Below, piece by piece: positions 4,834 through 58,714 of a DNA stretch of 64,000 nucleotides. The notes under the pieces are model-generated. The model was given only the letters and a program-made list of their open reading frames with translations, made no database searches and had not been told where the DNA came from. The position numbers and the translations under genes are program-made. How positions within the stretch are numbered: the stretch's first letter is position 1; each line of letters starts with the position of its first letter. Origin of the DNA: a virus. Location of the stretch: positions 5,419 through 69,418 of the IMG/VR virus record IMGVR_UViG_3300037010_002901; one strand, given 5' to 3'.

Positions 4834-5976
4834 TTAATAGATGTAGAAAAATGTGACTCGCTCAGTTCCTATTAGTGTAGTTCCTGTATAGGTAATAGAA
4901 GAACCACTATTTGAGTAAGTAGTTATATCAATAGCTAGTCCATTTACAAACATCTGTACTGATCCCGATGGAGTATGAGATATAGAGAATATAGTTTGAG
5001 CTACGCCTGCGGTCTGTTGATCTGCTCCCTGACGCATTTGAGGCTGCCATGTACCCTTCCCATTGGCATCGGAGGTAAATACATAACCTGAGCCTTGTGT
5101 TCCATCTATTATATTAGTATGTCCATCTGAGTCGATTATAAATGCAAATCCAAGTCCTGGGTCAACTGCAAAGGGTCTATTTCTTTTTATCCATATTTGT
5201 GGTGAGTGTGGACTTGGGTCATCTACAAATAGATTGACATAAAAATCTCCTTGTGTAGTATCATAAGCTGCGCTTATACCAGACCCTTTATTAGATGATA
5301 CATCAAAACAATAGATTAAATTTTCATGATCAGAAGGGTCATCAAACCCAACCACATTATTCATATATCCATAACGTAGATTCCCATCTTTTTGGACGAT
5401 TTGATATGTTACGTTACCTGTATATTCATTAGGGAATACACCATTCGTAATATTATTAACCATATCAGTAAATAAATGCATTCCATGTACATCTAATCTT
5501 GATAATGGGTATGCTGTACCTATACCTAAATTTTTAGTTGTATCCGTAAGCCATGTATCAGAGCCACTTTGTGACCAATACTTTGAACCCGCAGGCACAG
5601 CCCATGCACCTTGTCCATTTAAAAACGTAGTAGGATCATAGTTTAGCATAAGCCCCCCAGTGCCGGAATCAATCCTAAAGCAAATATTATAGAGCAACTT
5701 TCTAGCGCTATCGATGTTTGGAGCTATATTCACTACTGTGAGATAATTCCAGTCAGCAATCAAATATCTGTTTGCCGTTGTATAAACTGAAATGTATGAA
5801 GAGGTAGCATTTATGCCCATCGAGTTTTTGGGTTCCGCAGTGCGAATGTGAGAGGTTGTATCGTAAAAAACTACGTATGCAGCGCTATCTTGAACGGTGT
5901 ATATGTGTTGCTGCGCTGATGACAATATGGATATTGCCAAACCAAATGTAAATAGTATGGCCTTGAGATATTTCAT
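4834..5976 (-). CDS. tail-fibre-like protein with Sec signal peptide
   Basis: MKYLKAILFTFGLAISILSSA-QQ; NLGIGTAYP and DGTQGSGYVFTSDANGKGTWQ fibre motifs. Confidence 0.55.
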   Translation of the reverse strand: MKYLKAILFTFGLAISILSSAQQHIYTVQDSAAYVVFYDTTSHIRTAEPKNSMGINATSSYISVYTTANRYLIADWNYLTVVNIAPNIDSARKLLYNICFRIDSGTGGLMLNYDPTTFLNGQGAWAVPAGSKYWSQSGSDTWLTDTTKNLGIGTAYPLSRLDVHGMHLFTDMVNNITNGVFPNEYTGNVTYQIVQKDGNLRYGYMNNVVGFDDPSDHENLIYCFDVSSNKGSGISAAYDTTQGDFYVNLFVDDPSPHSPQIWIKRNRPFAVDPGLGFAFIIDSDGHTNIIDGTQGSGYVFTSDANGKGTWQPQMRQGADQQTAGVAQTIFSISHTPSGSVQMFVNGLAIDITTYSNSGSSITYTGTTLIGTERVTFFYIY

Positions 5977-6455: not shown

Positions 6456-7250
6456 TTATGCTATTTGGCTGCCACTCACTACATACGAAGTCGGGAGAAG
6501 CAATGGTGAATCATAAATGATTTTTGTGGTGCTTGTGCCATCATATGTTTTGCTTACCACCCACAGCTGGTTTAGCATGATGCTTGGTCCTTTTGATACC
6601 TTGTTATCTCCATTCACAAGAACTCCGGTGAATGGGACAAGCGGGCTACTGATTGTCTGATCAGTAAGAAAGGCTTGCATCTGCTCTGCTGCACCCTCGC
6701 CACCAGTAAAGTTGGTATTCACTGCAACAGAAAATGTAGGGCCGGTATTGGGGCCAAAAGAAACGTTCACCACCTTACCATTCCAGTATGATGTGCTTCC
6801 AGCCGGTCCATGAAGTGTATAGAGAATTGCTCTGCCAACCAAAGTCGAAGTTTGAGTAAAGCCTTGAGTATTGGCATTCAAAAGTGCTGTCACTGCCGTT
6901 CTTATTGCCGCCGGGGTTTCACCACCTGCACATATGTAATTGTAGGCAACTCCATCTACGGTTACTATCACTTTATCCCCCGCTGTGGCCGACACTGCCG
7001 CAGTAAAACCAGCGGTAGCGGCTGTGTCAGTAAATCTTGCTTCGAAGTCATATGTGTCAGGAGTCGCATTTGAGCCCCAGTAAATCACACGCAGTGTAGG
7101 CGTATTTGTATTGTCAATAGACAGTACACCAGTTTGCACGCTTATGATTTTTTCCGTATTGATTGATTCTGCAGGAATATTAGAAACCAATGAACCATTG
7201 ATTGCTAAAAGTACCAGGCTGCCGTTATTCAGTGGGAGTTGAAATGTCAT
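6456..7250 (-). CDS. hypothetical virion protein
   Basis: Thr/Gly/Ala-rich; TATTTTTG promoter upstream near 7273-7280. Confidence 0.6.
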   Translation of the reverse strand: MTFQLPLNNGSLVLLAINGSLVSNIPAESINTEKIISVQTGVLSIDNTNTPTLRVIYWGSNATPDTYDFEARFTDTAATAGFTAAVSATAGDKVIVTVDGVAYNYICAGGETPAAIRTAVTALLNANTQGFTQTSTLVGRAILYTLHGPAGSTSYWNGKVVNVSFGPNTGPTFSVAVNTNFTGGEGAAEQMQAFLTDQTISSPLVPFTGVLVNGDNKVSKGPSIMLNQLWVVSKTYDGTSTTKIIYDSPLLLPTSYVVSGSQIA

Positions 7251-7311
7251 AGGTTGTTTTCTTTAGGTTGCACAAAAATAGATATTTTTTGAGATTACCA
7301 AATTTATTTTT

Positions 7312-32878: not shown

Positions 32879-35128
32879 TTAATCGTAATAATTTTCCATA
32901 TTACTCATTCCGGTGAAGCCACCATAATTTGCAGGAGTTTTCACCTCTTGTCTTTTGGGTTTCCTCACCATTTTCGCATAGTAGCAGGCGTATCCTGCAG
33001 ATACAAAGCTGTCAAAAGGACTCCAATCACTCGGATTCAAATCTCGACAATCTTCCAATATATTGATAAACTTGCACCTCATTCCATGCTTATCTAAATG
33101 GCTGTCTACCGCCGCCATGATAGCCTCTGCCTGCGCACCGCCCACTGTCTGTACTCCCGGTTGCGATGCCTGTTGTGCGATTATCTGCCCATTTTTCTCA
33201 GTAATGATTGTTCTGGTTTTTAGAAATTTACTGTACCCTCTTCTGGCAAAGTACTGCCGAACGTTATCAATATTTGTCTCAACCATGATTTTGCAGCCCA
33301 GCCAGTGAACAAGAGCAATAGCATCTTCACAATATTCATCTGTCGTTCTTGGTCTGAAACAGTAGTGAATGCCCCAATCTTCAGTAAGCCAATCAGCTGT
33401 ACTGCTTTTTTTCCCGTCTATCAGATCATCGAAATTGCAGAATACCGTAAGCGCTCCCATTGATTTTTTCGTGCCCTCTGTCTCGTTGTATTTGAATGTA
33501 TCAGAGGCAGCCATATACAAAGCATCATTCAGTGGCATCAAAAATTCCGCATCGTTTATTCTGACACTATTAGCACGGTTTTTCTCTATATGCTCTATCA
33601 GTTCTCTTGGACCTCTGAATTTTCCATGCTCAGTCCATTCTACTTGATAACCGTTTTCTTCTTCATCCCATTTCAAGTTGAATGCCTCTGTGAATGGATC
33701 GCCATATCTAAAATCTGTAAGTCTTCTTTGAATAATATCTATCGTATTGAATGGACATAACCTATTGACCGATGTAAATGCCTCTTTTAGCGAGAACGGG
33801 TACATACTCTGAAAAGCTTGCCTGTCTCTAGGATCTTCTATTGCCGCCAACTCCGCAGATAGTAGTTCCTTTGCTGCCATCAAGTGATACCCTTTGTCTA
33901 CAAATGGTTTATATCCAAGTGATAGATAATATTGTTTCAAATACTCACTTTGCGCAGGCGTAGGATTTTCTATAATTGGAAATCCCCATTGATCAAATAC
34001 ATAACTTTCCCAAGCGGGCTTGAACCACACAATTAAACCCGATACTGTTTCCCCAAGATCATTCATCATTTTTCTTGCAGGTACACGGCTCGATTCATCA
34101 ACTAGCTTTTTGAATTTTATGAGCCCTTTGGGAGTCATTTGCTCAACCGTAGTAGTTATAAGAGCTTTCCCATTTTTCACAACCCTTACACGTAAGCATT
34201 GCTTATGAATACGCCATGTTGCATGGACGTCTACATCATCCCATTTCCCCGCTTCGTCTATTACCAGACCTATACAACAATCGTGGTGATCTTTTGCACC
34301 TAGCTTCTCACCATCAAACGCTGTTTCTTTTGTTGTGCGGGCCTCTATTCTACTATCCAACGACTCTACATCGCCCTCAGCTATTATCAAGTCTGAGGCG
34401 TCCAGGTCATCACCACCTCGGCTCGCATCCCTGAGTATAAGTTCTTTCTTTGGATAGGTTTTATTGTCAAATTGTGGCGCGAAATAAAATGGCAATTTTC
34501 GCCAAGCTTTCACGACATTTTTATCGAAAAACTCAATTGCATCATTACCGTTTTTCGAAAGAATCCCACCTACTGAATATCGCACTCTTGTAGCTGCCTC
34601 AAGGAGTTTGAAACCGGCTTTTGTTGACTTGGCATCCCGGCGCATTGCTATACTAATACCACCATATACCAATGGATCTTTGAGCACACATATATTCCAC
34701 CACCACTCCTCTTCAAGATCGGGATACCTAAATTCTGGTAGCTCGCCCTGCAGATATACATAATTCATAAAAAACCAGTAATTACCCGGAATCCACAGCG
34801 GTTTTCCATAGATATACATGAAGACTCCGTTGCGCCTCTTTTCCCACTGAGTCTCTATCCATTCACCAAATTCAGGGTTTTTCTCTGCTATCGCGATTGC
34901 TTCTTTTCTCGGCAAGCGATTTAATTTTGCTACCCAAGCCGGTTTATCTTCGTACTTAAAGAATTGTTCTTCTTTGGGAAATCCATAATTTATAAAATGT
35001 GTATGCGGGGGTGGAGCTGGTAATTCAACGTGATACGGCTCTACATCTTCATCTATGCCATCGCGAAGAATGATATTTCTTTTATAGTATTCGTATCCGA
35101 ATTTTTGGATAGTCGTTTTAGAGGCCAT
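32879..35128 (-). CDS. terL: terminase large subunit
   Basis: RR.NG.F, Walker A-like RRDAKST, Walker B IDEAGKW, TTT motif, YP...EAF, nuclease ASD, VETN and FD motifs. Confidence 0.85.
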   Translation of the reverse strand: MASKTTIQKFGYEYYKRNIILRDGIDEDVEPYHVELPAPPPHTHFINYGFPKEEQFFKYEDKPAWVAKLNRLPRKEAIAIAEKNPEFGEWIETQWEKRRNGVFMYIYGKPLWIPGNYWFFMNYVYLQGELPEFRYPDLEEEWWWNICVLKDPLVYGGISIAMRRDAKSTKAGFKLLEAATRVRYSVGGILSKNGNDAIEFFDKNVVKAWRKLPFYFAPQFDNKTYPKKELILRDASRGGDDLDASDLIIAEGDVESLDSRIEARTTKETAFDGEKLGAKDHHDCCIGLVIDEAGKWDDVDVHATWRIHKQCLRVRVVKNGKALITTTVEQMTPKGLIKFKKLVDESSRVPARKMMNDLGETVSGLIVWFKPAWESYVFDQWGFPIIENPTPAQSEYLKQYYLSLGYKPFVDKGYHLMAAKELLSAELAAIEDPRDRQAFQSMYPFSLKEAFTSVNRLCPFNTIDIIQRRLTDFRYGDPFTEAFNLKWDEEENGYQVEWTEHGKFRGPRELIEHIEKNRANSVRINDAEFLMPLNDALYMAASDTFKYNETEGTKKSMGALTVFCNFDDLIDGKKSSTADWLTEDWGIHYCFRPRTTDEYCEDAIALVHWLGCKIMVETNIDNVRQYFARRGYSKFLKTRTIITEKNGQIIAQQASQPGVQTVGGAQAEAIMAAVDSHLDKHGMRCKFINILEDCRDLNPSDWSPFDSFVSAGYACYYAKMVRKPKRQEVKTPANYGGFTGMSNMENYYD

Positions 35129-53614: not shown

Positions 53615-55075
53615 ATGTTCATCTGTAGTAAAAATTTAGAGTATCTGAAAACCATACCAGATAATACTTACGATAGTATTGTCACAGATGCGCCGTATGG
53701 TCTTGGCAAAGAGCCGGACGCCGTCAAAGTGCTGCAGGCATGGATTACCACCGGTTACTATGAGATCGGCGGGAAGGGATTCATGGGCAAAGAGTGGGAT
53801 GCATTCGTACCTCAGCCTCTATTCTGGAAAGAAGTGATCCGTGTGCTAAAACCTGGTGGCCATGTCCTCTGCTTCTTCGGTACCCGCACTTATGACTGGG
53901 GTGTGATGGCTATGCGCCTCGCAGGGTTTGAGATTCGTGATCAGATAGACTGGCTTTATGGTCAGGGATTCCCTAAAAGTCTGAATGTGAGCGTGGCGAT
54001 AGATAAGGAACTAGGAGCAGAAAGGGAGGTAATCGGAAAACGAGAGCATCCAACTTTGAAAGATAAATCAAAAATAAATCGTCAAGGCAATCAACAATTT
54101 CATGGAGAAAATAATATAAAAGACGAATGGGATGTGACAGGACCGAATTCGGATTACGCAAAACAATTCGACGGCTTTGGCACCGCTCTAAAACCCGCTC
54201 ATGAGCCGATAGTCATGGCCCGCAAACCCCTTTCAGGTACCGTTGCGAAGACAGTATTAGAGCATGGGACAGGAGGAATCAATATTGATGGCTGTAGAAT
54301 ACCATTTGCCGGAGATACCGATCTAAGGCTGCTATATGGGGGAGGTACCGATATCCTGAGGGGAAACTATGTAGGTGCTACGCATGGCAACGGTAAAGAA
54401 AATATCGAAGCTAACGACCTCGGCCGCTGGCCCGCCAATGTGATTATAGATGAAGAAGCTGCTACCATGATTGATCAGCAAACAGGAAAACTTACCAGTG
54501 GTGCTATGACAAAAAGTTATGAATATACCAACAATGGATTTTCATTAGGAAAACCAAGCGGCAGCACGAAGCAAATCCATGAAGCAAACAGCGGCGGAGG
54601 CTCCCGTTTCTTTTACTGCGCCAAGCCATCGAAAGAGGAGCGAAACAAGGGATGCGAACAAATGGAGCAAAAACCTTCCGGAGTAAAAAATGCCAGCGGT
54701 CGCGGGTACTCTGAGTCAGACCCATATAAGCAGGTACTCAATCAAAACACACACCCGACAGTAAAGCCAATCTCGCTTATGCGTTACTTGGTAAAAATGG
54801 TTACACCCCCAGGAGGTCATTGTTGCGATCCTTTTATTGGCAGCGGTACTACGCATATAGCATGTGAACTAGAGGGGTTTGAATGTACCGGTATTGACGA
54901 TGATCAAGAAAGTATTTTAATAGCCAAGGCACGAAGTAAAGGTTGGGCCGACGAGATTGCAGCAGCGGCATACCTGCGCACCCATCCAAAAGCACCGCCT
55001 GAGTCTGTCAAAAATCTAACTGCGGATCAAATAAGTTTTTTAGCGGGAAATATTCAAACATCACTTTTCTTATGA
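53615..55075 (+). CDS. DNA methyltransferase (N6A/N4C, beta class)
   Basis: VTDAPYG motif IV variant, HPTVKP, DPFIGSGTT motif I. Confidence 0.9.
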   Translation: MFICSKNLEYLKTIPDNTYDSIVTDAPYGLGKEPDAVKVLQAWITTGYYEIGGKGFMGKEWDAFVPQPLFWKEVIRVLKPGGHVLCFFGTRTYDWGVMAMRLAGFEIRDQIDWLYGQGFPKSLNVSVAIDKELGAEREVIGKREHPTLKDKSKINRQGNQQFHGENNIKDEWDVTGPNSDYAKQFDGFGTALKPAHEPIVMARKPLSGTVAKTVLEHGTGGINIDGCRIPFAGDTDLRLLYGGGTDILRGNYVGATHGNGKENIEANDLGRWPANVIIDEEAATMIDQQTGKLTSGAMTKSYEYTNNGFSLGKPSGSTKQIHEANSGGGSRFFYCAKPSKEERNKGCEQMEQKPSGVKNASGRGYSESDPYKQVLNQNTHPTVKPISLMRYLVKMVTPPGGHCCDPFIGSGTTHIACELEGFECTGIDDDQESILIAKARSKGWADEIAAAAYLRTHPKAPPESVKNLTADQISFLAGNIQTSLFL

Positions 55076-55275
55076 ATGAGAAAGATTTTGAAAAAGGCAT
55101 TCGGTTCTACCAAGCAGATCGTACCTGCAGAAATTATAATATTGTCCAAGTAGTTTTGAAAATAGATCAGGGATACGTACATACAGATATCAGACCCGAC
55201 GGTTTTGGAATAAGCAGCTACTATGCTGAAAAATGCAGAATAGCAAAAATTCTTAGCTGGAGGACCCTGCTATGA
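55072..55275 (+). CDS. hypothetical protein
   Basis: ATGA overlap with the methyltransferase stop. Confidence 0.5.
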   Translation: MNEKDFEKGIRFYQADRTCRNYNIVQVVLKIDQGYVHTDIRPDGFGISSYYAEKCRIAKILSWRTLL

Positions 55276-55433
55276 AAAGAATAAATTTTATGTTCCCAGG
55301 AGTAGACGCATTCAAAGAACCCAAAAAAAAAGGCTGCATATATTTGAGCTCTGTTTTTGGTGTAGCCACTACATACAAATAAGGTGTAATTTCTACTACT
55401 TTACCTTTCATTGGACAAAAATATAAAAAATTG

Positions 55434-55506
55434 GGTATCATACGGGATTCGAACCCGTTCCGATCAGTACCACAAACTGATGCTCTACCACTAAGCTAAT
55501 GACACC
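55434..55506 (-). tRNA. tRNA-His(GTG)
   Basis: G-1, GTGTCAT/ATGATAC acceptor, TCAGT-TTGTGGT-ACTGA, TTCGAAT T loop. Confidence 0.9.
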
Positions 55507-55515
55507 AAATAACAC

Positions 55516-55583
55516 GTGCAGCGGAACTACTTTTATTCCTATACCCTTTCGGATAGTTGGGTTTGAACCAACACCATCTGCAC
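55516..55583 (-). ncRNA. circularly permuted tRNA-like RNA
   Basis: GTGCAG-ATGGT-GTTGG TTCAAAC CCAAC-TATCC GAAA GGGTA-TA-GGAAT AAAAGTA GTTCC-G-CTGCAC. Confidence 0.65.
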
Positions 55584-55586
55584 TCG

Positions 55587-55659
55587 TAGAGTAGACCGGG
55601 CTCGAACCGGCGACCCCTTGCTCCCAAAGCAAGCACGCTACCAACTGCGCTACTACTCT
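55587..55659 (-). tRNA. tRNA-Pro(TGG)
   Basis: AGAGTAG/CTACTCT, CTTGC-TTTGGGA-GCAAG, GCCGG-TTCGAGC-CCGGT. Confidence 0.9.
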
Positions 55660-55700
55660 ATTTTTGTCACAATTATACCGTAAATGTGTGACAGATTTCG

Positions 55701-55771
55701 TTGTCCATTCTGGATTCGAACCAGAGTTATCGGGTCCAAAACCCGATCTCCTGCCGCTAGACAAATGGACA
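55701..55771 (-). tRNA. tRNA-Gln(TTG)
   Basis: TGTCCAT/ATGGACA, TCGGG-TTTTGGA-CCCGA, TTCGAAT. Confidence 0.9.
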
Positions 55772-55806
55772 ATAAAAAACCCCTACCAATTTCTCGGTAA
55801 GGGTCT
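55772..55806 (-). terminator. attenuator terminator immediately upstream of tRNA-Gln
   Basis: AGACCCTTACCGA-GAAA-TTGGTAGGGGTTT plus TTTAT. Confidence 0.75.
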
Positions 55807-55830
55807 ATATATGGTACACACACAGGCTGC

Positions 55831-55884
55831 CTATCCGATTGGTCGGTTAAGTGGCTGCGGCTGATGTGATATCCTCGTGATCAT
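55831..55884 (-). CDS. leader peptide MITRISHQPQPLNRPIG
   Basis: ATG 4 nt after promoter TACATTTG; His/Gln/Pro codons match the downstream tRNAs. Confidence 0.75.
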   Translation of the reverse strand: MITRISHQPQPLNRPIG

Positions 55885-55926
55885 GGCACAAATGTATAAA
55901 ATACAAATGGAATTGTAAAACTACAA
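55885..55926 (-). promoter_or_regulatory. Bacteroidota-type promoter of the Gln/Pro/His tRNA operon
   Basis: TTGTAGTTTT-N20-TACATTTG-TGCC-ATG. Confidence 0.75.
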
Positions 55927-56010
55927 TGAATTTTAAAAATAATTTTTGAGCAATAGCAACGGTTTTAAGGTTGATATTGTTTTTTAATTGTAGAACTACA
56001 AGACAAAAAG

Positions 56011-56082
56011 TGGTATCGGATGGAATCGAACCACCGACGCGGACGCCTTCAACGCCCCGCTCTACCCCTGAGCTTCGATACC
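56011..56082 (-). tRNA. tRNA-Phe(GAA)
   Basis: GGTATCG/CGATACC, GGGCG-TTGAAGG-CGTCC, TTCGATT. Confidence 0.9.
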
Positions 56083-56087
56083 TTTTG

Positions 56088-56145
56088 TGGTCAGCGGATG
56101 GAATAAAACCACCATAGACCGAAGCCAACGCATTTTACAGTGCGC
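56088..56145 (-). pseudogene. tRNA-Tyr(GTA) remnant lacking the 5' acceptor strand and D arm
   Basis: GCGCA-CTGTAAA-TGCGT anticodon arm, GGC-TTCG-GTC variable arm, degenerate T loop TTTTATT. Confidence 0.75.
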
Positions 56146-56148
56146 ATG

Positions 56149-56222
56149 CACGTAGGGTAGGACTCGAACCTAACAACCTGCGGTTTTGGAGACCGATGCT
56201 CTACCAATTGAGCTACCTACGT
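56149..56222 (-). tRNA. tRNA-Trp(CCA)
   Basis: ACGTAGG/CCTACGT, CGGT-CTCCAAA-ACCG, TTCGAGT. Confidence 0.88.
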
Positions 56223-56266
56223 AAATTGAAGAGCCCCTGCAGAAAATCTCTACAGGGGCTCTTCAA
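56223..56266 (-). terminator. attenuator hairpin immediately upstream of tRNA-Trp
   Basis: TTGAAGAGCCCCTGTAGA-GATTT-TCTGCAGGGGCTCTTCAA plus TTT. Confidence 0.75.
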
Positions 56267-56283
56267 GTATATCCGAAACTAAT

Positions 56284-56352
56284 CTACATACCAATCTGAG
56301 CCCCCTTGCAGAGACTATACCAGAACGATAATGATAGATTAGAAAATTTCAT
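56284..56352 (-). CDS. leader peptide MKFSNLSLSFWYSLCKGAQIGM
   Basis: ATG 4 nt after promoter TATATTTG; TTC TGG TAT match the downstream Phe/Trp/Tyr tRNAs. Confidence 0.75.
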   Translation of the reverse strand: MKFSNLSLSFWYSLCKGAQIGM

Positions 56353-56393
56353 GGCACAAATATAGAATTATTTTATTCACATAAAAACTACAA
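56353..56393 (-). promoter_or_regulatory. Bacteroidota-type promoter of the Trp/Tyr/Phe tRNA operon
   Basis: TTGTAGTTTT-N19-TATATTTG-TGCC-ATG, same layout as the promoter at 55885-55926. Confidence 0.75.
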
Positions 56394-56399
56394 AATTAC

Positions 56400-56645
56400 T
56401 CATACAAGAACCTTACTCAGCTCTTTCAGCACAGCATTCCATTTTTCCATACTGTCATACTCAATTACGATCGACTCCATCCCTTTGTAATAGAACTCTA
56501 TAAACCAGCGGCGCCCGGAACCTTCACCCTCTACATACGAATATAAAAACCGGTAGTCTTCATGTTTAATCTGCAGGTGTAGAAGATCATTGACATAAAC
56601 ACACGTGGCATAAAGGCTTTTACAAACTCGAATTTCAAATGGCAT
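56400..56645 (-). CDS. hypothetical protein
   Basis: Intact 81-aa ORF between tRNA units. Confidence 0.65.
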   Translation of the reverse strand: MPFEIRVCKSLYATCVYVNDLLHLQIKHEDYRFLYSYVEGEGSGRRWFIEFYYKGMESIVIEYDSMEKWNAVLKELSKVLV

Positions 56646-56705
56646 GGTATAAAATTACAAAAAGCCGCCATTACTTACAGCTTTTGCATTCATAGGTTTT
56701 TTGTG

Positions 56706-56778
56706 TAGCGTGGGCGGGACTCGAACCCGCGACCTTCCGGTTATGAGCCGGACGAGCTACCAACTGCTCCACCCCGCA
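56706..56778 (-). tRNA. tRNA-Met(CAT), initiator-like
   Basis: Unpaired T1:T72, GAGC/GCTC D stem, TCCGG-CTCATAA-CCGGA; promoter TACATTTG at 56827-56834. Confidence 0.88.
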
Positions 56779-57134
56779 ATATTGTACTACATTTTCATCA
56801 ACCGCCCTTTTAAAAGTTGCTGATCTCAAATGTAGCACGCAACAAACATAAATAAAAAAACCTTGCAAAAAAATAAGCAGTATGTTTTTACGACGTTCCT
56901 GCTTTTTTAGATTTGAAATGCGATCAATTTTCCAATTTTGGTTTATCTGCGGGTTTCTGTGCCTCACACCTTGCGGCCAGTCTGTCTCGTAAACAGATCC
57001 GGGTCTTGTTACCCCTACATTCCATCCATTCCTTTGCCGTCACTCTCCCCTTCTCATAGCAAGGTGGTTTATCTGCTTTCGCATTTTTGGAGAGGTGTAA
57101 ACGAACGCCAACCTTTCATACCGATGATGCCAAA

Positions 57135-57341
57135 TTAGGAAATTCGGCTGTACTTGTAATACTTTTTGATAAAATAGTCAAAATACTCTCCAATACTGGG
57201 TGCGGAAATCAGTGACTCATATGTGTCTGAAGGCACATCCTCATACTGGTAAACACCGCCCCAGTTAAACTCTACCTCAAGTATGCCATTTTCCCAGCCG
57301 ATTGACTCAATATTTGAAGATGACACTGACTGTCTTTCCAT
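57135..57341 (-). CDS. KTSC-domain protein
   Basis: VSSSNIESIGW...LEVEF..GGVYQY.DVP......APSIG.YF...IK. Confidence 0.9.
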   Translation of the reverse strand: MERQSVSSSNIESIGWENGILEVEFNWGGVYQYEDVPSDTYESLISAPSIGEYFDYFIKKYYKYSRIS

Positions 57342-57436
57342 ATCACAAATTTACAAAACTACATGGCATAAAAAAACCACCAGGCAGTTGTAATACCAGA
57401 TGGCTGGATTTCAAAGCTCTGCGAGTTAAAAAGAAT

Positions 57437-57691
57437 TTATGCTTCCGATGGCGATATGACTACTTCATAATCGCTATCGATGACAAACATATCTGTAGCG
57501 TCTTGATTAGTGGTGCGCAAAACAATACCAGTCCCGCCAGATAATTGATGATAAACAGAATTTGAATCATACGGAACTTGCAACTCTATTTCAGTAGCAA
57601 GAGGACTCTGCCCTTCGCCGACATTATAATTTTTTGTTTGTTTTTTGGAAACGCATTTACATTTTACCTTAGTTGACTTGATACTGCTCAT
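57437..57691 (-). CDS. hypothetical protein
   Basis: MSSIKSTKVKCKC...; ATG 57691 follows promoter TATATTTG. Confidence 0.65.
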   Translation of the reverse strand: MSSIKSTKVKCKCVSKKQTKNYNVGEGQSPLATEIELQVPYDSNSVYHQLSGGTGIVLRTTNQDATDMFVIDSDYEVVISPSEA

Positions 57692-58250: not shown

Positions 58251-58714
58251 AAAAATCCTCTTCTTTTTCTGAGTGTTGAATGAGAACACCGGGGCAATGA
58301 TTTTAAGCATAAATCAAAAGTAAGAAAAAACCGCGCCGCGCTCGAATTTTTGACCAAAATCAACACCTCCCTCGCCCAAATACACACAATCAACCCACTC
58401 ATGCCAACAAAACAAAAACCAACTATAAAACCAGAAAAAAAATCCCACATAAATACAGCGGAAAAGTCATTCGCCCGATTGACGCCCCCCTGTCGCGCGG
58501 TTCCAAATCGCTGTCGGGCGACCGCCTCCCCTCCCTTGGGGCTTACTTCCTCCTTCATTGCGATTAAAAGAAACAAAAGACATCTCATAGCGCGTGCTGT
58601 GAAAAACAAGTCAGGTTAAGCCACAAATAAGCCTATTAGGGCCAAAACACATAAAACGACCTATTCGCTAAAGAACAGGCGCGCTCTAATGCGCTCTAAT
58701 GGCTTATTTGCCAC

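What the first reader, a model, noticed from the sequence alone, without database searches (positions are those of the whole stretch)
55434..56393. Phage tRNA operons apparently controlled by leader-peptide attenuators that sense their own cognate codons
Seen: two minus-strand cassettes share the layout TTGTAGTTTT-N19/20-TAnnTTTG-TGCC-ATG, short ORF, terminator hairpin abutting the first tRNA, then tRNAs. Leader 56352-56284 (MKFSNLSLSFWYSLCKGAQIGM) has TTC TGG TAT and precedes tRNA-Trp, a Tyr remnant and tRNA-Phe. Leader 55884-55831 (MITRISHQPQPLNRPIG) has CAT CAG CCG CAG CCA and precedes tRNA-Gln, Pro and His. Established: this is the logic of trp/his-type ribosome-mediated attenuation, and host anticodon nucleases deplete tRNAs during infection. 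Inference: stalling on starved codons allows read-through, so the phage makes replacement tRNAs only when the matching host tRNAs are lost or uncharged. I know of no description of leader-peptide attenuation of phage tRNA genes, but I could not search the literature.
Basis: partly seen in the sequence, partly recalled or inferred. Interest (0 to 1): 0.96.

Follow-up and report, generated by a model that had tools for sequence, protein, structure and literature searches.

The report
Leader-peptide attenuators gating phage tRNA genes
This phage puts a tiny translated test gene, spelled in the codons read by the tRNA genes behind it and followed by a switchable transcription stop, in front of two tRNA gene blocks, so it probably makes those tRNAs only when ribosomes read these codons slowly.

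Summary
Both minus-strand cassettes have a Bacteroidota -7 box, an ATG exactly at the predicted transcript start, a short ORF, a strong hairpin 4-6 nt before the first tRNA, then tRNAs.

The codon match is not chance. In the phage's own six-frame background an H/Q/P run of 5 or more occurs in 45 of 66,575 windows.

Codon-blind scans of viral contigs gave 17 unique leaders of the right geometry. All 11 with a terminator abutting the tRNA list the downstream tRNAs' amino acids. The 6 without a terminator do not. Shuffling tRNA sets among leaders never reached the observed match (0 of 20,000). 120 cellular-genome matches gave no case.

In 22 cassettes, every non-Met tRNA type has a codon in its leader (94 of 94).

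A G-rich stretch near the ORF end copies the terminator 3' arm (antiterminator).

A cultured phage, Cellulophaga phi4:1_13, carries three such leaders.

Translation, termination and the physiological trigger are inferred, not shown. Nine of ten literature searches addressed this and found no description. This scan has noted the same thing before on other DNA.

The parts
56384..56393 (-). Cassette A: upstream word TTGTAGTTTT in the -33 region, shared only by the two cassette promoters.
   Evidence: Read. The same word at this spacing with the box and ATG gave only 12 hits in viral contigs, none with tRNAs.
56357..56364 (-). Cassette A: -7 box TATATTTG (Bacteroidota sigma-A type). TGCC follows, then the ATG at the predicted +1.
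   Evidence: Box position -12 to -5 is taken from PMC9723704 (passages).
56284..56352 (-). Cassette A leader ORF, 22 codons plus TAG: MKFSNLSLSFWYSLCKGAQIGM.
56317..56325 (-). Cassette A control codons TTC TGG TAT (Phe, Trp, Tyr), codons 10-12. A further Phe codon TTT lies at 56346-56344.
56298..56313 (-). Cassette A antiterminator strand inside the ORF (codons 14-19). It nearly copies the terminator 3' arm and pairs with the 5' arm.
   Evidence: In the fold of the transcript cut before the 3' arm, nt 36-55 pair with the 5' arm.
56266..56292 (-). Cassette A small hairpin that encloses the stop codon and nests inside the antiterminator helix.
   Evidence: structures.
56227..56265 (-). Cassette A terminator-like hairpin: 17 bp, 5-nt loop, -31.8 kcal/mol. 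The tail is only ATTT, 4 nt before tRNA-Trp.
   Evidence: It was not flagged by the consensus scan because the T run is short.
56148..56222 (-). tRNA-Trp (CCA).
56083..56147 (-). Truncated tRNA-Tyr-like remnant with a GTA anticodon-like loop and a degenerate T arm.
   Evidence: Read. Best local match is tRNA-Tyr, narrowly. Not called.
56010..56082 (-). tRNA-Phe (GAA).
55917..55926 (-). Cassette B: upstream word TTGTAGTTTT.
55889..55896 (-). Cassette B: -7 box TACATTTG. TGCC follows, then the ATG at the predicted +1.
55831..55884 (-). Cassette B leader ORF, 17 codons plus TAG: MITRISHQPQPLNRPIG.
55852..55866 (-). Cassette B control codons CAT CAG CCG CAG CCA (His, Gln, Pro, Gln, Pro), codons 7-11. 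A further CCA lies at 55842-55840.
55826..55858 (-). Cassette B: a hairpin formed in the untranslated leader (segments 1 and 2). It sequesters TCGG...AGG (55838-55830), the weak candidate antiterminator strand.
   Evidence: The duplex alone is not better than shuffles (p = 0.39).
55772..55805 (-). Cassette B intrinsic terminator: 12-bp GC-rich hairpin (55805-55778) plus TTTTAT, ending 1 nt before tRNA-Gln.
55700..55771 (-). tRNA-Gln (TTG).
55586..55659 (-). tRNA-Pro (TGG).
55433..55505 (-). tRNA-His (GTG).

Best explanation
Each cassette is a ribosome-mediated (leader-peptide) transcription attenuator placed in front of tRNA genes.

1. Transcription starts at the A of the ATG, so the mRNA is leaderless.
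2. A ribosome translates a 17- or 22-codon ORF whose central codons are those read by the tRNAs encoded just downstream.
3. If these codons are decoded quickly, the ribosome runs on to the stop codon. There it sits on, or melts, the G-rich antiterminator strand at the ORF's 3' end. The GC-rich hairpin abutting the first tRNA then forms and transcription stops.
4. If any of these codons is decoded slowly because the matching charged tRNA is scarce, the ribosome stalls upstream. The antiterminator strand pairs with the terminator's 5' arm, and RNA polymerase reads through into the tRNA genes.

The product (charged tRNA) is what the sensor measures, so each cassette is an autogenous negative-feedback loop on tRNA supply.

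Shown here: the anatomy, the codon-to-tRNA match and its tracking across phages, and the terminator/antiterminator complementarity.

Inferred: translation of the leaders, termination at the hairpins, the direction of the switch, and the physiological trigger.
For: (1) Anatomy at the stated coordinates.

(2) An ATG 4 nt after the TAnnTTTG box is the predicted +1, since the box lies at -12 to -5 (PMC9723704 passages). Long ORFs of this phage start the same way. Examples are the KTSC-domain gene with ATG at 57341 (Pfam E = 3.9e-20), the 137-aa ORF at 58310, and the 749-aa terminase-like ORF at 35128.

(3) Window odds: 45 of 66,575 windows for the H/Q/P run and 317 of 55,459 for the F/W/Y run.

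(4) Codon-blind scans of viral contigs asked only for the box, N4, ATG, and a tRNA T-loop 145-175 nt on.
- Scan 1: 14 unique leaders of the right geometry had 65 of 240 codons cognate, against a shuffled mean of 30.1. 0 of 20,000 shuffles reached 65. Frame controls gave 26 of 220 and 30 of 238.
- The match goes with a terminator: T+ leaders had 58 of 155 codons cognate (scan 1) and 18 of 63 (scan 2). T- leaders had 7 of 85.
- Ten of the 11 T+ leaders had 4 or more cognate codons. The eleventh, L125, was cut by the locus end.

(5) Prediction test. Extending L125 showed a cassette of Trp, Pro and Gln, the only 3 tRNAs in a 70-kb record. Its leader run is QQWPNQP.

(6) Completeness. In 22 cassettes, every non-Met tRNA type has a codon in the leader (94 of 94), while amino acids without a tRNA appear in 159 of 324 cases. 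In the 11 blind-scan cassettes the figures are 38 of 38 against 82 of 171 (Fisher p = 3.7e-11).

(7) Tracking among relatives of cassette B:
- Pro/Gln/His: HQPQP in the window.
- Plus Met: QQLHQQP...M (L150).
- Plus Arg: HQRP.R and H.QR.Q.P (L172, L175).
- Plus Glu, Leu and Arg: ERLPQH.L, RLLHLEQPQ and QRLHLQELEQP (L131, L109, phi4:1).

(8) Antiterminator.
- In 15 of 17 leaders that the script could evaluate, the best duplex with the terminator 5' arm lies near the ORF's 3' end, with p of 0.07 or less against shuffles, although the stems differ between loci.
- In a co-transcriptional model the 5' arm is paired 0.69 with a stalled ribosome against 0.40 with a ribosome at the stop. 16 of 19 leaders go this way (Wilcoxon p = 1e-4).
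- Cassette A shows a 16-nt copy of the 3' arm inside the ORF.

(9) Close variants. 3 of 3 substitutions inside two leader ORFs are synonymous. In a third leader all changes fall after the cognate run.

(10) Control. 120 matches of the same pattern in cellular genomes gave 32 leaders of the right geometry. None had a terminator, and 35 of 565 codons were cognate.
Against: - No expression data. Translation, 3' ends at the hairpins and read-through are all untested.
- Cassette A's hairpin is followed by only ATTT, so it is a poor intrinsic terminator by the usual rule and was not flagged.
- Cassette B's antiterminator is weak: 7 pairs, p = 0.39 against shuffles. L122's is also not significant (p = 0.47).
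- At thermodynamic equilibrium the terminator wins in nearly every scenario. The switch must therefore be kinetic, and my ribosome footprint (-15 to +12) is an assumption. For cassette A the stalled-versus-stop contrast is small: 0.49-0.76 against 0.59.
- Leaderless mRNAs are rare in Bacteroidota: 5.5% and about 3.7% (passages of PMC9723704 and PMC7366714).
- Under simple wobble rules only 50 of the 65 amino-acid-level hits are codons that the phage's own anticodons read.
- Leaders hold extra residues within or next to the runs that have no tRNA in the cassette. Examples are N, D and I in L125 and N in L131.
- Cassettes of different phages are related by descent, so counts over cassettes are not fully independent.
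Confidence: 0.8

Rival explanations
1. The leaders are translated and do sense cognate decoding, but the output is not intrinsic termination. The hairpin may serve as a processing or stability signal for the tRNA precursor, or a ribosome-free leader may admit Rho or RNases.
For: Cassette A's hairpin lacks a proper T run. Equilibrium folds do not discriminate between scenarios.
Against: 10 of 11 blind-scan leaders, and cassette B, have a GC-rich hairpin followed by 4 or more T within 15 nt of the tRNA. The in-ORF copies of the terminator 3' arm covary with the stems. That is what a terminator/antiterminator switch predicts and a plain processing signal does not.
Confidence: 0.1
2. Translation-independent sensing: the leader RNA binds tRNAs directly through its codons, in the manner of a T-box, and the ORF is incidental.
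For: The codons are complementary to the anticodons of the downstream tRNAs. A terminator/antiterminator pair is present.
Against: No T-box or other riboswitch family matched at E up to 1 in 54500-57500. The cognate codons come as in-frame runs of up to 16, starting from an ATG at +1 and closed by a stop. Frames +1 and +2 of the same leaders show no enrichment (26 of 220 and 30 of 238 against 65 of 240).
Confidence: 0.04
3. Promoter-proximal small RNA genes with their own terminators, or chance ORFs. The tRNAs would be made from other promoters and the codon match would be coincidence.
For: Promoter, about 110 nt, then terminator is also the layout of an sRNA gene. Attenuator-derived RNAs can act in trans (rnTrpL, PMC6614838, abstract seen in the listing).
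Against: Permutation test: 0 of 20,000. Completeness: 94 of 94. Window odds. No promoter-like box lies between hairpin and tRNA, since only 4-6 nt separate them.
Confidence: 0.03
4. The short ORFs encode functional small proteins that happen to sit before tRNA blocks.
For: Several leaders share a C-terminal GGTGM, GGTGV or GGTSV. One is annotated as a hypothetical protein in a GenBank record (Phi4113_075).
Against: The central part of the peptide changes with the tRNA set rather than being conserved. The shared C-terminus coincides with the antiterminator strand and the small hairpin around the stop codon, so the nucleotide-level constraint explains it.
Confidence: 0.03

Closest known systems
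Leader-peptide attenuators of enterobacterial amino-acid biosynthesis operons (trpL, hisL, pheL, leuL, and the multivalent thr and ilvGMEDA leaders). Named from recall; the general principle is as in the abstract of PMC1183508, seen in the listing.
   Same: A short ORF in the transcript leader holds regulatory codons cognate to the operon's product. An intrinsic terminator precedes the first gene. An alternative antiterminator helix forms or not according to ribosome position. Some of these leaders also sense several amino acids.
   Different: The regulated genes here are tRNAs, so the sensor reads out its own product directly instead of an amino-acid pool. Up to 10 amino-acid types are listed in one leader (L094). 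Translation starts at the 5' end of the transcript (leaderless). The system is carried by a phage. In most family members no obvious 1:2 pause hairpin was established.
Attenuation of the E. coli pheST (phenylalanyl-tRNA synthetase) operon by a Phe-rich leader peptide (recalled, no call).
   Same: A component of the decoding apparatus, not a biosynthetic enzyme, is placed under leader-peptide attenuation by its own cognate codons.
   Different: The product is a protein enzyme for one amino acid, and the system is cellular. Here the products are the tRNAs themselves, in multi-isotype blocks.
T-box riboswitches.
   Same: They monitor tRNA status through codon-anticodon recognition and a terminator/antiterminator choice.
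   Different: T-boxes act without translation, use one specifier codon in a conserved fold, and control synthetase and amino-acid genes. No T-box match was found here. The signal here is an in-frame ORF.
Candidate leader-peptide attenuation in Bacteroidota hosts: amino-acid operons of Flavobacterium psychrophilum (PMC9723704) and sORFs in long 5' UTRs of Bacteroides thetaiotaomicron (PMC7366714). Passages read.
   Same: These show that the host phylum is thought to use leader-peptide attenuation, and they share the TAnnTTTG promoter type.
   Different: Those cases concern amino-acid biosynthesis or unknown genes. The passages I read do not mention tRNA genes. Their supplementary tables were not available to me.

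Membership tests
Ribosome-mediated (leader-peptide) transcription attenuators | A short ORF lies in the 5' leader, upstream of and on the same strand as the regulated genes. | tested here: met
   ORFs at 56352-56284 and 55884-55831. They start at the predicted +1.
Ribosome-mediated (leader-peptide) transcription attenuators | Regulatory codons cognate to the regulated product are enriched in the ORF. | tested here: met
   Window odds of 45 of 66,575 and 317 of 55,459. Family: 65 of 240 against a shuffled mean of 30.1, with 0 of 20,000 shuffles reaching it. Completeness 94 of 94.
Ribosome-mediated (leader-peptide) transcription attenuators | An intrinsic terminator lies between the ORF and the first regulated gene. 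| tested here: met
   Cassette B has a GC hairpin plus a T run. Cassette A has a 17-bp hairpin but only an ATTT tail, so it is met only in part. All 11 blind-scan positives have one.
Ribosome-mediated (leader-peptide) transcription attenuators | An antiterminator helix is mutually exclusive with the terminator and is placed so that ribosome position decides between them. | tested here: inconclusive
   Cassette A: clear. Cassette B: weak, p = 0.39. Family: 15 of 17 leaders with p of 0.07 or less, and 16 of 19 with stalled above stop. This rests on a model with an assumed footprint.
Ribosome-mediated (leader-peptide) transcription attenuators | The leader is translated, and read-through rises when the cognate charged tRNA is limiting. 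| not testable with these tools
   No RNA run was listed. This needs Term-seq, Ribo-seq and reporters.
Ribosome-mediated (leader-peptide) transcription attenuators | The regulated genes are amino-acid biosynthesis or synthetase genes, as in all classical members (recalled). | tested here: not met
   The downstream genes are tRNAs. This is the point of novelty. It concerns the target, not the mechanism.
T-box riboswitch (Rfam T-box) | The conserved T-box fold and sequence are detectable by the covariance model. | tested here: not met
   cmscan of 54500-57500 at E up to 1 found only 6 tRNAs and two sub-threshold chance hits.

The most novel reading that the evidence does not exclude
The cassettes are on-demand counter-measures. 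Each leader is a real-time assay of one class of tRNAs. The phage switches on replacement tRNAs only when the host's copies are destroyed or disabled during infection, whether by anticodon nucleases, by other tRNA-directed defences, or by the phage's own host shut-off. The blocks are sorted by codon first letter: UNN for Trp/(Tyr)/Phe and CNN for Gln/Pro/His here. Within-cassette sharing is 0.47 against 0.30 in shuffles. This sorting would let the phage answer class-specific damage, such as loss of an anticodon-loop modification shared by one class. That would make tRNA supply an inducible, sensed layer of the phage-host arms race.
Probability: 0.3. Interest if true: 0.95.

Novelty: new variant of a known kind. 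Interest (0 to 1): 0.9.

Why it matters
Phage tRNA genes are usually discussed as constitutive helpers for codon usage or as spare parts against tRNA-cleaving defences. I found no account of how their expression is controlled. If these leaders work as their anatomy says, three things follow.

- tRNA genes join amino-acid operons as targets of leader-peptide attenuation. They would be the simplest possible autogenous loop, because the product is the very molecule the sensor consumes.
- Each leader becomes a readable label of what a tRNA block is for. That helps annotate degenerate or unusual phage tRNAs: leaders predicted Trp/Pro/Gln in L125 and name residues for uncalled tRNA-like genes in L109 and phi4:1.
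- The question of when a phage needs its own tRNAs becomes directly testable in a cultured system, Cellulophaga baltica with phage phi4:1_13, which has three such leaders.

The design is also a compact, modular, multi-input sensor of decoding speed, which could be reused in synthetic biology in Bacteroidota.

Tried and rejected
- Close relatives of the locus. BLASTN of 55400-56800 against 50,697 phage records matched tRNA-length pieces only, with at most 7% of the query covered.
- Loci around relatives of the neighbouring methylase. L001-L080 were at most 52% identical over full-length matches (65% on one 192-residue fragment), and one tRNA was found among the 92 loci held at that point (L001-L092). 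They are no use as syntenic markers.
- The cassette-specific promoter word plus box plus ATG gave 12 viral loci, about the number expected by chance by my rough estimate, with 0 tRNAs.
- The terminase-like protein as a single query found no relative in viral contigs.
- Equilibrium base-pair probabilities of the full leaders do not separate the stalled and stop scenarios, because the terminator dominates. I replaced this with a co-transcriptional snapshot.
- My automatic terminator finder failed on two leaders, cassette A and L094 at 3926, because their T runs are short or interrupted. A second finder handled them.
- Sequencing runs: no RNA holder was listed. Contigs of 4 DNA runs (microbial mat and sediment metagenomes by their record) carry the stretch with no other letters in the leaders. 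They give no variation to test and no evidence on expression.
- The idea that codon choice in the leaders matches the phage anticodons exactly was not borne out: 50 of 65 amino-acid hits under simple wobble.
- Literature. Searches looked for attenuation or leader peptides with phage or viral tRNA genes, arrays, operons or clusters, in 8.1 million PMC papers and 0.36 million bioRxiv preprints. From listings and abstracts, none describes leader-peptide control of tRNA genes. PMC6409571, a survey of viral tRNA clusters that includes Cellulophaga phages, has 0 occurrences of attenuat-, leader or promoter. Subscription-only papers are not covered.
- Supplements are closed. Table S7 and SI Appendix D9 of PMC9723704 and Supplementary Data 3 of PMC7366714 list candidate leader peptides and sORFs that I could not see.
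- I did not use structure prediction, complex prediction, the search for homologous proteins or the protein atlas. No protein question arose.
Full report
WHAT IS THERE

The window lies in a 69,418-bp single-contig virus record with a 127-bp terminal repeat and 40.7% G+C. Six tRNA genes sit on the minus strand between 55433 and 56778: Met, Trp, Phe, Gln, Pro and His (ARAGORN; all six also over the Rfam cut-off).

Cassette A:
- TTGTAGTTTT, then N19, then TATATTTG, then TGCC, then ATG at 56352.
- A 22-codon ORF, MKFSNLSLSFWYSLCKGAQIGM.
- A 17-bp hairpin at 56265-56227, then ATTT.
- tRNA-Trp, a 65-nt tRNA-Tyr-like remnant, then tRNA-Phe.

Cassette B:
- The same word, then N20, then TACATTTG, then TGCC, then ATG at 55884.
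- A 17-codon ORF, MITRISHQPQPLNRPIG.
- A GC-rich hairpin at 55805-55778 plus a T run.
- tRNA-Gln, tRNA-Pro, tRNA-His.

The consensus scan flags only the second hairpin as terminator-like. The first has a very strong stem (-31.8 kcal/mol) but a poor T tail.

The Tyr remnant is not called by either tRNA finder. Its best local match among tRNAs of 87 loci is tRNA-Tyr, only just ahead of Arg-acg (32 against 31). By reading it has a GTA anticodon-like loop.

PROMOTER AND START

TAnnTTTG is the sigma-A -7 box of Bacteroidota and lies at -12 to -5 (passages of PMC9723704 and PMC7366714). An ATG four bases after the box is therefore the predicted first base of the transcript, which makes these mRNAs leaderless.

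Leaderless mRNAs are rare in the two hosts studied (5.5% and about 3.7%, same passages). In this phage, however, several long ORFs start in just this way:
- the KTSC-domain gene, ATG at 57341, Pfam E = 3.9e-20;
- a 137-aa ORF, ATG at 58310;
- the 749-aa terminase-like ORF, ATG at 35128.

A 5'-terminal ATG is therefore a normal start signal for this phage, by inference from gene structure and not from expression data.

The terminase-like protein's nearest cultured relatives are distant, at 23-27% identity. 86 of the 87 matching records are phages named for Flavobacterium, Cellulophaga, Tenacibaculum or Maribacter, which fits a Bacteroidota host.

IS THE CODON MATCH CHANCE?

Within this genome's own six-frame, stop-free background:
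- a run of five or more H/Q/P codons occurs in 45 of 66,575 16-codon windows;
- a run holding F, W and Y occurs in 317 of 55,459 21-codon windows.

Both events sit exactly at the only two hairpin-gated tRNA blocks of the genome.

THE DECISIVE TEST: DO LEADERS TRACK tRNA SETS ELSEWHERE?

No close relative of the locus exists in the collections I could search. I therefore ran scans that are blind to codons. They asked only for the box, N4, ATG, and a tRNA T-loop word 145-175 nt further on.

Scan 1 gave 41 viral loci. After removing duplicate peptides I required an ORF of at least 10 codons that ends before the first tRNA, with the tRNA 60-200 nt from the ATG. That left 14 leaders.
- 65 of their 240 codons are cognate, at the amino-acid level, to the tRNAs of the block behind them.
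- The mean is 30.1 when tRNA sets are shuffled among leaders, and 0 of 20,000 shuffles reach 65.
- The same nucleotides read in frames +1 and +2 give 26 of 220 and 30 of 238.

The signal is all-or-none and goes with a terminator.
- The 8 leaders with a hairpin of -9 kcal/mol or better plus a T run within 15 nt of the tRNA have 58 of 155 codons cognate.
- The 6 without one have 7 of 85.

Scan 2, with another T-loop word, gave 45 loci and 15 unique leaders. Three have the right geometry. All three have a terminator, and 18 of their 63 codons are cognate.

Examples:
- MIRIQHIEQPIDLLTG before Pro, Ile, His, Glu, Gln.
- MRTINIQQQPNNWNSILGGTGM before Trp, Pro, Gln, Met, Asn.
- MKTIKNNTERLPQHNLIMGGTSV before Pro, Glu, Gln, His, Leu, Arg.
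- MRMTSLYTFCWFSSSRHRWK before Trp, Phe, Cys.

These yielded 106 unique leaders, of which 32 have the right geometry. None has a terminator, and 35 of 565 codons are cognate.

FURTHER CASSETTES AND A PREDICTION

I then looked upstream of every tRNA block in the positive loci, no longer blind. This added six more leaders. Two of them have 18- and 32-nt A-rich 5' UTRs instead of a leaderless start. One is MQSIKRNMVNIDRTGATLRKGIPI before Ile, Met, Asn, Arg, Asp, Ala, Gly, Lys, Arg, Thr, Val.

One blind-scan leader, L125, had been cut by the end of the stored locus after its first tRNA. From its run QQWPNQP I expected Gln, Trp and Pro. Fetching more of the record showed Trp, Pro and Gln, the only three tRNAs of a 70-kb record. 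Its N, D and I codons have no tRNA there.

Over 22 cassettes, every non-Met tRNA type has at least one codon in its leader: 94 of 94. The 22 are 19 cassettes from metagenomic viral loci and the window, plus 3 from a cultured phage. Amino acids without a tRNA in the block occur in 159 of 324 cases. For the 11 blind-scan cassettes the figures are 38 of 38 against 82 of 171 (Fisher p = 3.7e-11).

Among relatives of cassette B the leader changes with the block:
- Pro/Gln/His gives HQPQP here.
- Adding Met gives QQLHQQP...M.
- Adding Arg gives HQRP.R.
- Adding Glu, Leu and Arg gives ERLPQH.L, RLLHLEQPQ or QRLHLQELEQP.

Cassettes are related by descent, so these counts are not fully independent.

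THE SWITCH

In every positive, a G-rich stretch near the 3' end of the ORF copies the 3' arm of the terminator, although the stems differ from locus to locus.

Scored as a duplex with the 5' arm against 500 shuffles of the upstream sequence, 15 of the 17 leaders my script could evaluate give p of 0.07 or less, with the pairing segment close to the stop codon. Cassette B (p = 0.39) and L122 (p = 0.47) do not.

With the whole leader at equilibrium the terminator always wins, so any switch must be kinetic, as in classical attenuators.

I then folded the transcript up to the terminator loop with a masked ribosome footprint. The footprint of -15 to +12 around the A-site codon is my assumption. The 5' arm is paired on average 0.69 with a ribosome stalled on a cognate codon, and 0.40 with a ribosome at the stop codon. 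16 of 19 leaders go this way (Wilcoxon p = 1e-4).

For cassette A, 56313-56298 pairs with the 5' arm around a small hairpin that holds the stop codon. The contrast between stalled and stop is small: 0.49-0.76 against 0.59.

For cassette B the model gives the full classical picture:
- With no ribosome, an internal hairpin (55858-55826) sequesters the antiterminator strand and the 5' arm is free (0.27).
- With a ribosome stalled on codons 7-11, the arm is paired (0.62-0.72).
- With a ribosome at the stop, the arm is free (0.30).
- The antiterminator itself, however, is only seven pairs.

The ribosome at the stop codon does not reach the terminator: gaps of 18 and 25 nt separate stop and stem. 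The opposite polarity, in which stalling causes termination, is therefore not favoured.

SELECTION

Between near-identical phages, 3 of 3 substitutions inside two leader ORFs are synonymous. In a third leader all changes lie after the cognate run. The three changes in a terminator fall in its loop. This is a small sample.

WHAT IT IS LIKE AND WHAT IT IS NOT

No T-box or other riboswitch family matches the region, and the signal is frame-specific.

The anatomy is that of leader-peptide attenuators of amino-acid operons, with three differences:
- The regulated genes are tRNAs, so the sensor consumes its own product.
- Translation starts at the transcript's 5' end in most cases.
- One leader can list up to ten amino-acid types.

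I file it as working like that family. It is a new variant, not a classical member, because the defining target class is not met and function is untested.

IS IT KNOWN?

Eight full-text searches with varied terms found no description of leader-peptide control of tRNA genes (I saw listings and abstracts). A survey of viral tRNA clusters that includes Cellulophaga phages never uses the words attenuat-, leader or promoter (PMC6409571). Subscription journals and supplements were out of reach.

This scan's own notebook holds 365 notes from at least 306 genomes with these words. The follow-up reports shown to me reached the same reading on other phages and likewise found no paper. I did not test their DNA. 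My loci come from my own scans.

A CULTURED EXAMPLE

Cellulophaga phage phi4:1_13 (KT962245.1, host Cellulophaga baltica) has three such leaders:
- MKIQRLHLQELEQPIISGGTGV, starting 4 nt after its box, before Pro, Glu, Gln, His, Leu, Leu, Arg.
- An ORF annotated as hypothetical protein Phi4113_075, reading ...QLTKTGITVIDKTKGARAYLGDTVIG, before Ala, Lys, Ile, Gly, Met, Asp, Thr, Val, Arg, Met. Its start codon is unclear.
- MKTNYCTYNNSNWSFSYDTGSVCTLGSDGLIG before Tyr, Ser, a pseudo-tRNA, Trp, Phe and a second pseudo-tRNA.

This makes the mechanism testable at the bench.

LIMITS

- Nothing here shows RNA or protein. No RNA run was listed for this phage.
- The trigger is open. It could be host tRNA loss to defence nucleases, phage-induced decay of host tRNAs, a codon-usage mismatch late in infection, or simple homeostasis.
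- Amino-acid starvation would also open the switch, although more tRNA would not relieve it.

VERDICT

- Confidence is 0.8 that these are translation-sensed attenuators of tRNA transcription.
- Novelty: new variant of a known kind.
- Interest: 0.9.

Noticed in passing
window 57341, 58310, 55411, 35128 (minus strand); 49050 (plus strand): Many ordinary ORFs of this phage start 3-4 nt after a TAnnTTTG box, that is at the predicted +1. They include a KTSC-domain gene and the terminase-like gene. Leaderless mRNAs therefore seem common in this phage although they are rare in studied Bacteroidota.
   Followed up: partly
Neither ARAGORN nor Infernal (E up to 1) calls anything there. I did not test it.
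   Followed up: no
L299 610-700; L098 minus strand upstream of the block at 2426: A shared element of about 80 nt, with a common core of about 25 nt, follows tRNA blocks in two unrelated viral records. It was seen by eye. It may be a conserved non-coding RNA or a tRNA-like pseudogene.
   Followed up: no
19 cassettes: window and L094-L175: tRNA blocks are sorted by the first letter of the codons they read. Here they are UNN for Trp/(Tyr)/Phe and CNN for Gln/Pro/His. Within-cassette pairs share the letter in 0.47 of cases, against 0.30 in shuffles, and 0 of 5000 shuffles reach 0.47. The cassettes are related by descent, so this is suggestive only.
   Followed up: partly
L300 (KT962245.1) 5052-5171 and 7180-7281: Two small annotated 'hypothetical proteins' lie between tRNA blocks of Cellulophaga phage phi4:1_13. 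The first (Phi4113_075) overlaps a cognate-codon leader. The second (Phi4113_076) overlaps tRNA-like sequence and looks like a mis-call.
   Followed up: partly
L215 and L269 (two alphaproteobacterial MAG contigs): A Lys-rich short ORF lies about 105 nt upstream of tRNA-Lys(CTT): 8 of 24 codons in L215, with a similar ORF in L269. No terminator was found. It may be chance in A-rich DNA, or a cellular case worth a look.
   Followed up: no
window 56827-56834 to 56778 (minus strand): tRNA-Met has its own TACATTTG box about 50 nt upstream, with no terminator and no ORF beyond ATG AAA ATG TAG. It appears not to be gated in the way the other two blocks are.
   Followed up: no
L135-L178 (many loci of one large sample): In a large group of about 100-kb viral contigs, a TAnnTTTG box lies 21 nt before tRNA-Gln, so the pattern's ATG gives only 'MIRR'. 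These are tRNA blocks driven directly by a promoter without a leader.
   Followed up: no
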